64,000 bases of DNA from the human T2T-CHM13v2.0 reference genome, Homo sapiens. Location: NCBI RefSeq assembly GCF_009914755.1, contig NC_060925.1. One strand, 5' to 3'. A program made the translations under genes and the position numbers. Below the pieces are notes generated by a model, which saw nothing but the letters and a program-made list of their open reading frames with translations, ran no database searches and was not told where the DNA came from. Below, in pieces: positions 7,025 through 61,088 of the stretch (position 1 is its first letter; each line of letters opens with the position of its first letter).

Positions 7025-7178
7025 TATCATAATGAAGACCTGGAAAAAGACAAAACATCACAAAACTGCCTAGGAAGAGGAATGGAACAAGTAGCAAAGA
7101 AGTTAGGGGTGGCTCATGAAGAGATTCAAAGGCTCACTGATGAACTACAAGTGAAGGAGAAGGAACAATGTAAATTAG
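7025..7178 (+). CDS. CCDC30: CCDC30 upstream coding exon A (YHNEDLEKDKTSQNCLGRGMEQVAKKLGVAHEEIQRLTDELQVKEKEQCKL)
   Basis: ttttatttcag| acceptor and |gtaagc donor; 154 nt, phase 0 to 1; heptad-like E/K/L/Q-rich peptide; internal ggaATGg at 7082. Confidence 0.8.
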
Positions 7179-9169
7179 GTAAGCTGTGGTTTCAGATGAC
7201 CATTTCCGATCATGCTTTAACTGTACTGATCTCATCTCAGGGTGGAACATGAGAAAAAAAAAAAACACTGAGAAACAAGTCTTTAAGATAAACACATAAA
7301 AGTGATGAACAGCCTCATTTTCTACCATGCTAGGAATTTTTGTCAAAGCCCAAGCATATCTACCAAAAGTGCACAACTTGTAAGTGTATACCACTCACCA
7401 CAAGAAATTCCCAGCCTCTCAGAAGTCCCCTGTGTTCCTTCTTTCTATCTCTACATCCTTCCTCCTCCTTCAGAGTAACTACTGTCCTGACTGAATGCAG
7501 TTTCTGCGTTTGACTATATGCAGTATGCCTTCTATGGTTTGCTTCTCCTGCTCAGTCTTATAAGATTCATTCATTTTGTTACACGTAGCAGTTGTTTGTT
7601 CACTCTGCTGTTTATAGTATTTCATTAATAAACATACTGCAATTTATCCATTCTACTGATGGACGATTGTGTTGTCAGTTTTTGTCTATTATGAATATTG
7701 CTGCTATAAACATTTTGGTATATGTCTCAGTGTGCTTATTACACATTTCTGATTGTGGTAAGAGCAGAATTACTGAATCAAAGGGCAGGTTCTACTTTGG
7801 TCTTCCAAGGTAATTATACTAATTTAAGCTTTCCTCAGTTGTATGTGAGATTTTAGTTCCTCCACCTTGGTTTTCAATACTTGGTACTGTCAGTCTTACC
7901 AACTTCACCTTTTATGTTGAGTGTATAGTGGTATTTAAGTGTGGCTTTAACTGGTATTCCCTGACTGCTAATTAAGTTGAAGATCTTTTCATATGTTTGT
8001 TGTTGTTGTTACTCGTTTGGATATACAACTTTGTGAAGTTCCTGCTCGAGTCTGTTGTATATTTTTCTATTTTATTTATTTGTGGGAGTTCTTTATATAT
8101 TGTGGATATGAGCCTTTTGTTGGTTATAAATGTTATGTTGTTGTTATTGTTTTTTTACCATAAATGCTAATATTCATCAAGTTGGGTTTAAGTGAATTAT
8201 TCTTTATGCTTTCTGAGTTTTCATGTTTAAAGCCTTTTCTTCACTACAAGGTTATTGAAAATATTTACCCCTGGTTTTGGGGGGGTACTTTTATTGTTTA
8301 TATTTACATCTTTGCTTTATCTAGAATTTAGTATAAAAATTTTAAATTATAATTATCTCCTTTCTATATTTTTAATCCGTGACTGATTCTTTTACAAATG
8401 CAATGTATAGGTTACTTTAGAATCATAAACATTAAAAATGTTAAATGTATAAAACAATAATGATTATGCCTGTGTGATTAAAAACAAATAATAATAAAAA
8501 AAAGAATATCAGGATGTAAATTTTTTATAAGTACATTTTAAACAGTGGACACAAATAACTTTTCAGAATGATGGAAATGTTGCATATCCCATGTGGGTTG
8601 GTGGGTATACAATTGTACATATTTGTCAGAATTCTTCAAACTATACACTTAAAAGGGTGAATTTCACTGCATGCAATTTATTCCTCAGTAAACACTATCT
8701 AAAAAGAAAATAAATTTGGTCACATGAACACGATGAGAAGCAATATTTGCTGCTTGCCATACAAGAAGAAAAAAGGAAAGCAGGATATTCAGTACCCTTA
8801 GTAGTTACATTTGGACACAACAGAACACAATCACATAGCAACCTGTTCTATCAGCAGTTGCTCTGTAGGGTAAATCCCAGACGTATCAACTGAAAGCCGT
8901 CTCCACAGTGAGTCTATTAGGACTGCTGGGAAGCTGAATTAGCAAGTCCTTTTGGAATGTTGTGTGCAGTATCAGTGTGTGCGCCATCTGTAACTTCCTG
9001 AGTCATCCACTTATAGCAGAATTTGTAGCTAGGCATGTGTTATATGACAGTGTTTCCCAAGTATTAGCTTGTTTCTTTCAACAAACTCTTTAAAATAAAT
9101 CCCTTTAGTTCTCTTTAGTTTATTCTTTAGCTCTCTATCACATCATAAAATTTGGATGAAAATGAAAAA

Positions 9170-11700
9170 TTTTTTCAGTGATAATTTTTTCAAGAATAAA
9201 AAAGAATTTATATAAAATATTTGTTCCTCAACAAATGAATATCAAGAAAAAAGATGAATTTTTAAAGATTTAAGAGACTTATTAACCAATTATGATGTGT
9301 GGCCTTTATTGAATCCTGATTCAAATTTTTAACATTAATAAAACAATTTGAAATTTGAACACTTGCTAGACATATGAGTTAAAGAATTATTGTTAAATTT
9401 TTGTTAAATTAATTTTTTGTTTAAAAAGAGTTCTTATTTTTTAGAGCTGTATAGTGAAATATTCATAAGTGAATGAAATGATGTCTAGGATTTGCTTCAA
9501 AATAATACAGGTCTCTACCTTACACCTACACAAAAATTAATTCAAAATGGATCATAGAGCTAAATGTAAGTTAAAACTGTAAAACTGTTAGAAGAAAACA
9601 AGGAAAACATCTTCATGATCTTGGGTTAAGCAGTGATACATTAAATATGACACCAAAAGCAAAAATGATGAGAAAAACTAATACATTGGACTAAATCAAA
9701 ATTTAAAACCTTTACAGTTCAAAACATACCATCAGAAAGTGAAAAGACAACTCATAGACTAGAAGAAAATATTTGCAAATCATGTGTTTGATATGGATCT
9801 TACATCCAGAATATGTAACAAATTCTTACAATTTAATAATTAAAAGACAGCCCAATTTAAAAATGGGCAAAAGGGCTGGGCGTGGTGACATGCACCTGTA
9901 GTCCTAGCTACTTGGAAGGCTGAGGTGGAAGGATAGCTTGAGCCCAGAAGTTTGAGGCTGTAGTAGGCGATGATTGTTCCAGCCTGGGTGACAGAGCAAG
10001 ACCCTGTCTCAAAGAAAAAAGATGGGCAAAGGATTTGAAAAGACATTTCCAGGAAGAAGATATGTGAATGACCAACAAGCACATGAAAAGATGCTCAGCA
10101 CCTCCCATCATAAAAATTGATAAGTATGTGAGGTGATAGATGTGTTAATTAACTTGATTTAATCACCCCACAATATAAATATATAGCAAAACATTACATT
10201 GTACCCCATAAACATATACAATTATTATTTGTCGATTAAGAAGACGATGTTCGATACCATTAGTTATTAGGGAAGTGCAAAGCAAAACCACAATGAGCGT
10301 CTACTTCATACCCACTAGAATGGCCATGCTAAAAAAGACAGACAGTGACAACTGTTGGTAAGGATGTGGAAACATTGAAACCCTTATACATTGCTAGTAA
10401 GAAGGTAAAATAGTGAAGATACTTTGGAAAACATTTAACAGTTTCTCAAAATATTAAAGGCGACCCAGAAATTCTACTCCTAGCTACCTACCCAGGAGAA
10501 ATGAAAACATGTATCAACACAGACTTGTATGTAAATGTTCATAACAATATTAGTTACAGTAGCCAAGAGTTAGAAACAACCCAACTGTCTGTCAGTTGGT
10601 GAACAGATAAACAAAATGCAGTATATCCATACTGTGCAGAAAGTAGCTAACAGCACACCCGACACTGCTATTCTTAAGAAAGGACTGCTTATAACAGTCA
10701 CAAGCATCTGGCTGACATCTGGGAACCTGGATTTTGGGAGGGTTTCCACCATTCCTTAACCAATAGTGGCTCACTGTGCCTAAGCTGTTTATACAATGTG
10801 GTCCATGCAGAACACCTGCTTTCCTTTAAGAGTCTTGGTATATGCTAGGCAGAAAGTGTGTGTGTGACCAGCCCTCAACAAAACCTTAGGTGGTGAGTCT
10901 TTCATGAACTTCCCAGGTAGACATTTTACATGTATTGTCACAGTTCACTGCTGGAGACATATCCTTTGTGACTCCACTGGGAGCGGACTCTTGGAAGCTT
11001 GTTCCTGGTTTCTTCTGGCCTTTGCCCTATGCATCCTTTCCCTTTGCTGATTTTGCTTTATCCTTTTGCTGTAGGAAATCTTAGCTTTGAATATGAACAT
11101 ATGTTGAGACTTGTGAGTCCTCTTAGCACATCACCAAACCTGGGGGTGACCTTGGGAACTCCTGACACTCATATGATAGAATACTATCTGCCAGTAAAAA
11201 GGAAGGAAGTACTTACACCTGCTACATGGATGAATCTCAAAAACAAGCTAAGTAAAAGAAGTCAGATGCAAAAGATCATATATTGTGTGATTCCATTTAG
11301 ATGAAATGTACATAAAAGGCAATCCTATAGAGATAGGAAGTAGATTGGCATAGCTGGGCACAGTAGCACATGCTTATGTCCCAACTACTTGCCACTTGGA
11401 AGGCTGAGGCAGAAGAATCACCTAGCCTATGAGTTTGAGTCCAACCTGAGCAACATAGTGATGCCCTGTCTCAAAAAAAAAAAAAAAAAAAAAAAGGAAA
11501 GTAGATTAGTGGTTGTCTAGGGCTAGGTATGAAAATTGGGATTGACTAAGTGCATATGATTTTCTTAATAGGGTGATGGAAATGTTCTAAAATTAGATTG
11601 CGATGGTTGCATACCTGTAGGTATACTAAAAACCATTGAATTGTCCACTTGAAATATGTAATTTTTAAGGTATGTAAACTGTACCTCAAAGCTGTTAAAA
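9170..11700 (+). mobile_element. Old L1 (L1MB/MC-like) 3' region with nested Alu monomers (9872-10020, 11353-11495), an L1MA 3' scrap (10110-10240) and an ERVL-type LTR (10633-11167)
   Basis: L1 ORF2-end and 3'UTR motifs resume on both sides of each insertion. Confidence 0.65.
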
Positions 11701-11728
11701 ATATAAGAACTGGGGGAAATAAGTGTAT

Positions 11729-59932: not shown

Positions 59933-60230
59933 GGCCGGGCACGGTGGCTCACACCTGTAATCCCAGCACTTTGGGAGGCCGAGGTGAGTGGATCGCTTGA
60001 GCCCAGGAGTTTGAGAACAGGCTGGGCAACATGGTGAAATCCCATCACTACTATATATATATATTATATATATATAATATATATATTATATATATATAAT
60101 ATATATATAATATATATATAATATATATATAATATATATATAATATATATATTATATATATATAAAATATATATTATATATATATAATATATATATTATA
60201 TATATAAATTTTAAAAAATTAAAAAAATAA
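59933..60230 (+). mobile_element. Alu left monomer followed by an AT-only repeat (60052-60208)
   Basis: Perfect 16-bp TSD acaatggagaggggtc at 59917-59932 and 60231-60246. Confidence 0.88.
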
Positions 60231-60962
60231 ACAATGGAGAGGGGTCTGCTGCTTGGTGATAGTGTGCTCATCAAAGAAATTGGCTCAGTTTTTGTTGTGT
60301 TCCTAAGTTGTATTTTGATCTCAATTTTATCTCCTAATAGGTTTTTTTACATAACAGAAAATTCACTTTGGCAAGGCTGAATAGAGTAGATATTAAAAGT
60401 AAGAGATTTAAGTTAGACTTGACTTAGAATTCCAGTACTGACTGTGTGAACTTGGACAAATTATGTAACATATCTGAGCCTCACCTGTCTCCTCTGTAAA
60501 AATAATGTAATAATAATTCCAATCTCATAGGGGTCCTAGGAAAACAAAATGAAATAATGCATCTAACATACTTACCATAGTCTCTGACATGTGGTAAGTC
60601 CTCAATATAAAGTAGCTGTTATCATTATGAGTCCAATTTTTATTATTTTCAAATAATTTGGAAAGATTTCAATACTGCCTTATATTTGATAAGTGATTAA
60701 ATTTTATAAAATACTTTCAAAATCACATTTTATTCCTACTGTGATGGCTATAATGTAGGTAGAACAAGTGTTACTACATTTTACCATTGTGTAAATTAAG
60801 GCTTAGAGAGAAAAATGTATCTTATGAGCTATAAACTAGTTTTCCTAGGTTCATAAATCCCCTGGATGATTTCATTATTGAGTTAGAAAGTTGTTATTAT
60901 CAGAATTTGTAGGAAACACTGCTATTATATATAAAATTAATTATGTAAAATGCTTTTTACAG

Positions 60963-61088
60963 ATCCTGAAAATGAGCCAAGAAAAAAATGAAATGTTTGA
61001 AAGTGAGTGGTCAAAAGAGAGAGAGAGAGAGAAGCAGTTGGCATCTGGTCTTGACACTGCAGAGAAGGCCTTGAAAGTTGAAAGTGAG
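60963..61088 (+). CDS. CCDC30: CCDC30 exon F, carrying the familiar start ATG at 60972 ([39 protein letters not shown])
   Basis: ctttttacag| acceptor and gag|gtatta donor; 126 nt, phase 0 to 0; matches the recalled CCDC30 N-terminus. Confidence 0.92.

What the first reader, a model, noticed from the sequence alone, without database searches (positions are those of the whole stretch)
7025..61088. Hidden ~150-aa coiled-coil N-terminal extension of CCDC30 across four exons
Seen: exons of 154+72+116+99 nt (441 nt) have compatible phases (0-1-1-0-0), no stops and heptad-rich sequence. They join exon F in frame across a ~37.7-kb intron if exon E is skipped, adding 150 aa (155 with MLELQ) before MSQEK. 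Exons B-D are absent from the ORF track. A strong-context ATG at 7082 is an alternative start. Frame preservation over four exons suggests selection. Newer annotations may already contain this isoform.
Basis: partly seen in the sequence, partly recalled or inferred. Interest (0 to 1): 0.7.

Follow-up and report, generated by a model that had tools for sequence, protein, structure and literature searches.

The report
Known CCDC30 N-terminal coiled-coil exons
The four exons are real, conserved coding exons that give human CCDC30 a coiled-coil N-terminal extension, but this isoform is already the selected RefSeq transcript, so the finding is correct and not new.

Summary
Exons 7025-7178, 14519-14590, 21456-21571 and 23176-23274 (154+72+116+99 = 441 nt) all have AG/GT borders. 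They are open in one frame only and join exon 60963-61088 in frame. That puts 150 aa before MSQEK, or 155 aa counting MLELQ.

It is not hidden. The hub's table lists exactly these exons as coding in NM_001395517.1. The database protein 'CCDC30 isoform 4 [Homo sapiens]' has the same first 194 residues.

The module is under selection. Ape and felid sequences are 82-84% identical over it, against 59-66% for the rest of the protein. It sits upstream of DUF4686 in 44 of 47 long relatives, one of them a teleost CCDC30.

It is predicted to be one long helix. A parallel in-register homodimer model scores 0.43 against a best control of 0.00.

The annotated ATG (4914) lies in an antisense Alu-like repeat. 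Two older upstream modules, conserved from teleosts to lemur, are decayed (x2) or undetectable (x3) in the human genome, and none of the anthropoid proteins examined carries them. The true human start (4914, 7082 or an upstream exon) is open.

The parts
4823..4928 (+). First coding exon of the selected transcript, 106 nt, with CDS from ATG 4914 (MLELQ). It is derived from an antisense Alu-like repeat.
   Evidence: AG/GT borders, donor CAG|GTGAGC. Positions 4831-4946 match 21 other repeat copies in the window at 72-84% identity, on both strands. A minus-strand match to Metazoa_SRP covers 4792-4947 at 25.9 bits, below the gathering score of 70, E 8.7e-5. MLELQ, MLGLQ and [15 protein letters not shown]-termini occur only in anthropoid proteins.
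7025..7178 (+). Exon A, 154 nt, phase 0 to 1 (YHNEDLEK...EQCKL). It contains the alternative ATG at 7082 (Met25).
   Evidence: tblastn places exon A of 9 orthologues here at 69-98% identity.
14519..14590 (+). Exon B, 72 nt (DSALKKAQLEIDKLKENLVKLKEN).
   Evidence: Orthologues are 68-96% identical.
21456..21571 (+). Exon C, 116 nt (DAADLQKAKEQNQRLDEEILALRNRVRSLDSEKKVLGEM). This is the best conserved part.
   Evidence: Orthologues are 77-98% identical. It holds a run of nearly invariant columns, I100-L110.
23176..23274 (+). Exon D, 99 nt. It holds the end of the helix (VERLKGEV) and a Gly/Pro-containing linker (QENKQLGNHSPGKTVGGEQREQ).
   Evidence: pLDDT is below 50 for residues 139-152 of the model.
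60963..61088 (+). Exon F, 126 nt (ILKMSQEK...). It is joined in frame to exon D and holds the start codon of the short isoform at 60972.
63660..63797 (+). Exon G, 138 nt, the next coding exon.
59244..59344 (+). It belongs to other transcripts, and placing it between D and F breaks the frame.
   Evidence: Hub table ('exons of other transcripts'). With it included the first stop is at codon 166.
57613..58306 (+). Alternative exon of other transcripts. I take it to be the first exon of the short (MSQEK-start) mRNAs. Its leader holds 9 upstream ATGs, each with a short ORF.
   Evidence: Hub table, and (804-nt leader; upstream ORFs of 1-22 codons). That it is a first exon is my inference, not tested.
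5004..5087 (+). Decayed remnant of a cassette exon that is coding in carnivore proteins. In human it has an in-frame stop and a 3-residue gap.
   Evidence: tblastn with Lontra and Halichoerus pieces: 58-61% identity, E 1e-4 to 1e-5 against the 28-kb region, with a stop inside the match.

Best explanation
Exons A-D are constitutive coding exons of the long CCDC30 mRNA, which starts upstream near PPCS. They encode a helix of about 110-130 residues followed by a flexible linker of about 25 residues. This sits in front of the part of the protein that the short isoform begins with (MSQEK).

The helix most likely pairs with a second copy as a parallel, in-register two-stranded coiled coil. That would lengthen the rod of a protein that, in Xenopus multiciliated cells, forms a ring round basal bodies.

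The short isoform comes from transcripts that carry the alternative exons 57613-58306 and 59244-59344. Those exons cannot be read in frame with exon D.

Shown here: exon structure, frame, conservation, annotation status, helix prediction.
Inferred: dimerisation in the cell, which promoter drives which isoform, and which ATG is used (4914 in the Alu-like exon, or 7082).
For: Structure and frame:
- Splice sites, a single open frame and the in-frame D-F junction.
- 0 of 20000 shuffles were open.

Annotation:
- The hub table lists these exons as coding in NM_001395517.1.
- P0008, 'CCDC30 isoform 4 [Homo sapiens]', shares its first 194 residues exactly with the window's spliced translation.

Conservation:
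- Exon A alone retrieved 131 proteins at E <= 10; the 120 listed were mostly named CCDC30, from apes, monkeys, lemurs, bats, felids, mustelids, seals, elephant and elephant shrew.
- tblastn places exons A-D of 9 orthologues on the four exons.
- Ape-to-felid identity is 82-84% over A-D against 59-66% over residues 153-938.
- A 4-sequence profile of the module found 124 representatives at E <= 1e-3.
- 44 of the 47 long ones scanned carry DUF4686 downstream of the match.
- One of them, P0141, is Salvelinus alpinus CCDC30, 47% identical over 104 aa.

Fold:
- The heptad score is 0.605 against 0.314 +/- 0.039 in 500 shuffles, none of which reached it.
- The AlphaFold2 model has one helix at residues 3-138, 96 residues at pLDDT >= 90, and residues 139-152 below 50.

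Homodimer model:
- Score 0.43, best of 3 controls 0.00. Runs agree in at least 97% of contacts and partner pLDDT is at least 86.
- The contacts are i-to-i, so the model is parallel and in register.
- The mark was reached by 21 of 30 proteins solved as pairs of one chain and 0 of 23 solved as single chains. On eukaryotes it was 17 of 29, and 0 of 30. A pass may come from memory of other coiled coils.

Biology:
- Xenopus Ccdc30 forms a ring at basal bodies. Knock-down reduces centriole number and docking (bioRxiv 10.1101/2025.05.20.655211, passages read).
Against: - No transcript reads, ribosome profiling or peptides were examined here. Expression of the junctions rests on the annotation.
- A full-text search for the two peptides and the two accession numbers found 0 papers. 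Supplements are not covered by that search.
- The annotated ATG has only a moderate context (cccaaaATGc) and lies in a repeat. The first 5 residues are not conserved outside anthropoids.
- The extension matches no Pfam family at its curated cut-off.
- The dimer model is a prediction. Models of this kind readily pair coiled-coil helices.
- The Xenopus work does not say which part of the protein is needed.
Confidence: 0.9

Rival explanations
1. The exons are coding, but human translation starts at ATG 7082 (Met25, MEQVAKK...) and not at the Alu-borne ATG 4914. The real extension would then be about 131 aa, and residues 1-24 would be leader.
For: ATG 7082 has the stronger context, G at -3 and G at +4. 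Met at this position occurs only in anthropoids; other mammals have V or A. That coincides with the loss of the older upstream exons. Four database proteins from macaque and green monkey start at MEQVAKK: P0113 and P0118-P0120.
Against: Under scanning, the upstream ATG 4914 (A at -3) would be met first in transcripts that hold the Alu-like exon. Residues 6-24 (YHNEDLEKDKTSQNCL) are well conserved across mammals. The RefSeq curators chose 4914, according to the hub table.
Confidence: 0.25
2. In humans exons A-D are in effect untranslated leader. The protein starts at MSQEK even on long mRNAs, and the open frame is a relic of the ancestral gene that is now decaying, as the upstream modules x2 and x3 did.
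For: The older N-terminal modules are lost or decayed in human. The annotated start comes from a repeat. As I recall it, not from any call, the long-standing reference protein begins at MSQEK.
Against: The human frame has 441 nt without a stop or frameshift. Ape-to-macaque identity over A-D is 93% and ape-to-Aotus 92%, about the same as the rest of the protein at 95% and 91%. Two in-frame ATGs precede MSQEK, which scanning ribosomes would have to skip.
Confidence: 0.06
3. The open frame over four exons is chance, or the exons are non-coding.
For: None found.
Against: 0 of 20000 shuffles were open. Protein-level conservation reaches a teleost. The exons are annotated as coding in the hub table.
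Confidence: 0.01

Closest known systems
Human CCDC30 long isoforms in RefSeq (NM_001395517.1 per the hub table; 'isoform 4 [Homo sapiens]', P0008)
   Same: Identical exons. The first 194 residues are identical.
   Different: Nothing. This is the same object.
CCDC30 of non-anthropoid vertebrates (lemur P0100, leopard P0095, otter P0107, elephant P0117, Arctic char P0141)
   Same: They carry the A-D module in the same place, upstream of DUF4686.
   Different: They also have about 110 further conserved residues upstream (x1-x3: M[ED]E.KE, VE.Y..H...LTE..E, KEVEEML..EGLSEIALSSPSEQIAYLLVER). In human, x3 was not found, x2 lacks a GT donor, and the annotated start is in an Alu-like exon.
Exonised antisense Alu elements that supply new 5' coding sequence in primate genes (general knowledge, recalled)
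   Same: The repeat is antisense. Its AG and GT sites are used as exon borders, and the resulting N-termini are confined to anthropoids.
   Different: Here the exon appears in the selected transcript and carries its start codon. It is not a minor cassette. How often it is included was not measured here.
Pfam DUF4200 and Cep57_CLD_2 (coiled-coil families of cilia and centrosome proteins)
   Same: Weak profile similarity over the helix: 20.3 bits and 17-20 bits.
   Different: Both are below the curated cut-offs of 29.7 and 27.1 bits. The likeness is most simply explained by coiled-coil composition.

Membership tests
CCDC30 / DUF4686 (PF15742) family | A DUF4686 domain in the same polypeptide as the extension | tested here: met
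   P0008 (human isoform 4) has DUF4686 at 197-579, 574.6 bits. P0016 has it at 383-765, 570.8 bits, against a cut-off of 31.3. The domain itself lies downstream of the window.
CCDC30 / DUF4686 (PF15742) family | The extension is homologous to the N-terminal region of other family members | tested here: met
   124 representatives matched at E <= 1e-3. 44 of the 47 long ones scanned carry DUF4686 downstream; the other 3 (P0134, P0155, P0173) had no Pfam hit at 1e-5.
Annotated coding exons of human CCDC30 | The same exon borders and frame as a curated transcript | tested here: met
   The hub's RefSeq table gives coding parts 4914-4928, 7025-7178, 14519-14590, 21456-21571, 23176-23274, 60963-61088. 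The spliced translation equals P0008 over residues 1-194.
Two-stranded parallel coiled coil | Heptad periodicity of core residues in a long uninterrupted helix | tested here: met
   Heptad score 0.605 against 0.314 +/- 0.039, with 0 of 500 shuffles reaching it. There are two registers, with a shift near residues 78-85. The model has a helix at 3-138.
Two-stranded parallel coiled coil | Self-association in parallel register | tested here: inconclusive
   The model supports binding but does not show it: score 0.43, best of 3 controls 0.00, i-to-i contacts from residue 22 to 132. No experiment is available.
Pfam Cep57_CLD_2 (PF14197) and DUF4200 (PF13863) | A score at or above the curated gathering cut-off | tested here: not met
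   Scores were 20.0 and 17.0 bits against 27.1, and 20.3 bits against 29.7.
Prefoldin (the alias PFD6L/PFDN6L) | A match to a prefoldin Pfam family | tested here: not met
   No prefoldin family appeared at E <= 0.01 in P0016, P0008, P0003 or P0095. The alias comes from the literature (PMC12712654, passages read).
Exonised antisense Alu | The exon lies in a 7SL-derived repeat on the opposite strand, and the sequence is restricted to primates | tested here: met
   21 other copies in the window. A minus-strand Metazoa_SRP match at 4792-4947, 25.9 bits, below the gathering score. N-termini from this exon occur only in anthropoid proteins among the 120 examined. The name 'Alu' is my reading of these results; no repeat library was searched.

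The most novel reading that the evidence does not exclude
Anthropoid primates, humans included, have lost the oldest and best conserved N-terminal module of CCDC30. Exon x3 (KEVEEML..LSSPSEQIAYLLVER) is conserved from teleosts to lemur but is undetectable in the human genome. Exon x2 survives as an open 123-nt relic without a GT donor.

The 5' end was rebuilt with an exonised antisense Alu that now carries the annotated start codon, together with an anthropoid-only Met25 in strong context.

Human CCDC30 would then differ at its N-terminus from the Xenopus protein in which the basal-body function was studied.
Probability: 0.55. Interest if true: 0.4.

Novelty: already known. Interest (0 to 1): 0.15.

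Why it matters
For the finding as given, the value is mainly a check. A reader working from raw sequence recovered the exon chain that RefSeq now selects, and that chain is coding and selected.

The useful points for anyone working on CCDC30 are these:
- The short MSQEK protein often used as reference lacks a conserved dimerising helix.
- The human start codon is uncertain and lies in a repeat.
- Human and other anthropoid proteins lack an N-terminal module present in frog, fish and most mammals. This bears on carrying results over from Xenopus, where Ccdc30 is a basal-body ring protein needed for centriole number and docking, to human airway cilia.

Tried and rejected
- Pfam scans of the six exon translations one by one and of P0003 gave only sub-threshold coiled-coil hits (Cep57_CLD_2, DivIC, DUF4200). 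I rejected these as family assignments.
- A full-text search for the peptides LDEEILALR and AQLEIDK and the accessions NM_001395517 and NP_001382446 found 0 papers. Supplementary tables are not covered by that search, so proteomic evidence may exist there.
- A search for 'CCDC30' with 'Alu' found 2 papers. I read the CCDC30 passages of both, and neither concerns the start exon. One is about mouse B1 hairpins in Ccdc30; the other is about a DUX4-bound LTR used as a first exon.
- I looked for exon x3 in human in three ways, and none found it:
  - tblastn of five species' pieces against window -20000..+8000; the best hit was E 0.22 at an unrelated spot.
  - A whole-genome search with a 65-aa lemur piece; 0 matches at E <= 10. 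The tool warns that an empty answer is weak evidence.
  - A 30-sequence profile HMM over all six frames; only x2 was hit.
- dN/dS and PhyloCSF could not be computed, because no orthologous vertebrate DNA is held by the tools. I used protein identity of the extension against the rest of the protein instead.
- CpG content round 57613-58306 (observed/expected 0.18) gives no sign of a CpG-island promoter. I did not pursue this.
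Full report
**Observation**

I read the six exon neighbourhoods and spliced them in a script. Exons 7025-7178, 14519-14590, 21456-21571 and 23176-23274 are 154, 72, 116 and 99 nt long, 441 nt in total. Each follows a pyrimidine-rich tract and an AG, and each is followed by GT. The donors are TAG|GTAAGC, ATG|GTAAGT, ATG|GTAAGT and CAG|GTATTG.

One frame of the joined 441 nt is open and the other two are full of stops. None of 20000 shuffles of the same bases was open. Joined to 60963-61088 the frame runs on as ...[15 protein letters not shown]. 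That gives 150 residues before MSQEK, and 155 when the CDS starts at ATG 4914 (MLELQ) in exon 4823-4928.

If the 101-nt exon 59244-59344 is placed between D and F, the frame breaks and the first stop falls at codon 166. The ATG at 7082 has a purine at -3 and G at +4. Only exon A lies in a + strand ORF of 60 aa or more.

**Is it hidden?**

No. The table added by the hub lists exactly these exons as the coding exons of the selected RefSeq transcript NM_001395517.1. The other exons in the window (1470-1498, 57613-58306, 59244-59344) belong to other transcripts.

There is independent support. A search with the 51 residues of exon A returned 131 proteins at E <= 10, of which 120 are listed. [quoted passage not shown] Its first 194 residues equal the window's spliced translation letter for letter. 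P0016 is a 938-aa orang-utan protein that represents a cluster of 53 sequences. It differs from the human translation at 4 of the first 240 positions.

**Selection**

tblastn places the N-termini of nine orthologues exon by exon on A, B, C and D at 62-100% identity. The nine are orang-utan, macaque, owl monkey, lemur, flying fox, leopard, otter, elephant and elephant shrew.

In global alignments to the ape protein, the A-D segment is 82-84% identical in three felids. Residues 153-938 are 59-66% identical. This counts unaligned positions as differences, and the felid isoforms lack some exons. For macaque the values are 93% and 95%, and for owl monkey 92% and 91%.

A profile of four short natural proteins covering the module (alignment A2) found 124 cluster representatives at E <= 1e-3 among 1.84 billion proteins. 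I scanned the 47 that are longer than 400 aa. Of these, 44 carry DUF4686 (PF15742) downstream of the match, and 3 had no Pfam hit. One of them, P0141, is CCDC30 of the teleost Salvelinus alpinus. It is 47% identical to the human module over 104 residues.

The module is therefore an old, selected part of the family. I could not compute dN/dS because no orthologous DNA is held.

**What the extension looks like**

- The heptad score of residues 1-155 is 0.605, against 0.314 +/- 0.039 for 500 shuffles. None of the shuffles reached it.
- One register runs from about residue 8 to 84 and a second from about 78 to 133. After that comes a stretch with no heptad pattern that contains Gly and Pro.
- An AlphaFold2 model of P0003 (orang-utan, MDETKE plus exons A-D) used a 12-row alignment. 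It gives a single helix over residues 3-138, with mean pLDDT 82.2, 96 residues at pLDDT 90 or more, and pLDDT below 50 for residues 139-152.
- Two copies of residues 20-135 were modelled as a complex:
  - The score was 0.43, and the best of 3 controls scored 0.00.
  - The runs agree in at least 97% of contacts, and partner pLDDT is at least 86.
  - Contacts are residue i with residue i at 3-4 spacing from 22 to 132, which is a parallel in-register pair.
- Calibration of the mark:
  - It was reached by 21 of 30 proteins solved as pairs of one chain and 0 of 23 solved as single chains.
  - On eukaryotes the counts were 17 of 29, and 0 of 30.
  - A pass may reflect memory of other coiled coils.
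- The model supports pairing; it does not show it.
- No Pfam family is matched at its curated cut-off. DUF4200 scores 20.3 bits against 29.7, and Cep57_CLD_2 scores 17-20 bits against 27.1.

**What the protein does**

In the passages I read of bioRxiv 10.1101/2025.05.20.655211:
- Xenopus Ccdc30 is expressed in multiciliated cells.
- It forms a ring round basal bodies that is larger than the Cep164 ring.
- Its knock-down reduces centriole number, apical actin and basal-body docking.
- The authors call the protein otherwise uncharacterised.
- The paper does not test which part of the protein matters.

PMC12712654 (passages read) describes PFDN6L as a splice variant holding the C-terminal 572 residues of CCDC30. 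No prefoldin family was matched here.

**Beyond the finding: the start of the human protein**

*The annotated start lies in a repeat.*
- Positions 4831-4946 match 21 other repeat copies in the window, on both strands, at 72-84% identity.
- The minus strand of 4792-4947 gives a sub-threshold match to 7SL RNA: 25.9 bits against a gathering score of 70, E 8.7e-5.
- I read this as an antisense Alu-like element whose AG and GT serve as exon borders.
- N-termini from this exon ([24 protein letters not shown]) occur only in ape and monkey proteins among the 120 examined.

*Non-anthropoid proteins continue upstream of exon A.* Lemur, felids, otter, seal and elephant have about 110 more residues. I call these x1 (..M[ED]E.KE), x2 (VE.Y.N....LTE..E......EKEN.Q......LQ.KQ) and x3 (KEVEEML..EGLSEIALSSPSEQIAYLLVER...). 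Of the 47 long representatives, 38 carry this upstream module too, often better conserved than A-D.

*What remains in the human genome* (loci L011 and L012):
- x1 ends at window -2335 with a good donor (AAAGAA|GTGAGA). Read from its ATG at -2352, it is in frame with exon A, giving MGETKE|YHNEDLEK.
- x2 lies at -276..-154. It is 123 nt long and open, is preceded by AG, and is 81% identical to lemur. It is followed by AG where a GT donor is expected.
- x3 was not found. I tried tblastn with five species' pieces, a whole-genome search with a lemur piece (the tool warns that an empty answer is weak) and a 30-sequence profile over six frames of -20000..+8000. The profile hit x2 at E 2.2e-11 and nothing else better than E 6.
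- A carnivore cassette exon has a remnant at 5004-5087 with an in-frame stop.
- Placing the Alu-like exon after x1 ends that frame at codon 43-44. This is why the annotated CDS restarts at the ATG inside the repeat.
- None of the anthropoid proteins among the 120 carries the x2 or x3 motif.
- Met25 (ATG 7082) is Met only in anthropoids. Other mammals have V or A there.

*Limits of this part.* Only the human genome was examined at the DNA level. The other species are represented by database proteins, many of them automatic predictions. 'Not found' holds for these queries only.

**Verdict**

The isoform is already the selected RefSeq transcript, so the finding is known.

Two things remain open. 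One is which ATG human cells use. The other is whether the anthropoid loss of the x2-x3 module, together with the Alu-borne start, has any consequence for function.

Noticed in passing
window 4823-4928 (repeat 4831-4946): The start codon of the selected CCDC30 transcript lies in an antisense Alu-like repeat. The N-termini it gives ([24 protein letters not shown]) are confined to apes and monkeys among the 120 proteins examined.
   Followed up: yes
upstream of the window: L012 9724-9846 (window -276..-154) and L012 7648-7665 (window -2352..-2335): Two older coding exons of CCDC30 sit just left of the window. x2 is open and 81% identical to lemur, but is followed by AG instead of GT. x1 (MGETKE) has a good donor and is in frame with exon A. 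A third, x3, is conserved from teleosts to lemur and was not found in the human genome with three kinds of query.
   Followed up: yes
window 5004-5087: Remnant of a cassette exon that is coding in otter, seal and cat proteins. In human it has an in-frame stop and a 3-residue gap.
   Followed up: partly
window 61679-61807: Homologue of a cassette exon present in 972- and 984-aa macaque isoforms (SHGLISRFNLLSCHLGKIYQEIQSAYILKRDLE). The human copy is 74% identical with an in-frame stop, so it would be a poison exon if used.
   Followed up: no
upstream of the window (window -19072..-18234) and proteins P0109-P0117, P0011, P0067: Predicted PPCS-CCDC30 read-through proteins. They have a PPCS N-terminus (PF04127) joined to CCDC30 exons, in elephant, in Pongo abelii isoform X8 and in an unnamed 1091-aa protein. 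The hub table has the CCDC30 gene starting just upstream of the PPCS start, so the two genes appear to share a promoter region.
   Followed up: partly
window 7082-7084: Met25, in a strong initiation context, is Met only in anthropoid sequences and V or A in lemur, bat, felids, otter and elephant. Four monkey database proteins start there.
   Followed up: partly
window 1470-1498: A 29-nt exon of other transcripts with AG and GT borders. No orthologous protein matched it in tblastn, so it is probably non-coding leader.
   Followed up: no
window 4816-4883: A sub-threshold Rfam match to the mir-3135 precursor family: 44.9 bits against a gathering score of 80. It lies inside the same Alu-like exon and is most simply a by-product of the repeat.
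   Followed up: no
literature, not the window: Sci Adv 2025 (PMC12057663, one passage read) reports that DUX4 binding to an LTR upstream of CCDC30 creates isoforms with that LTR as first exon. This is a further source of 5' diversity at the gene.
   Followed up: no
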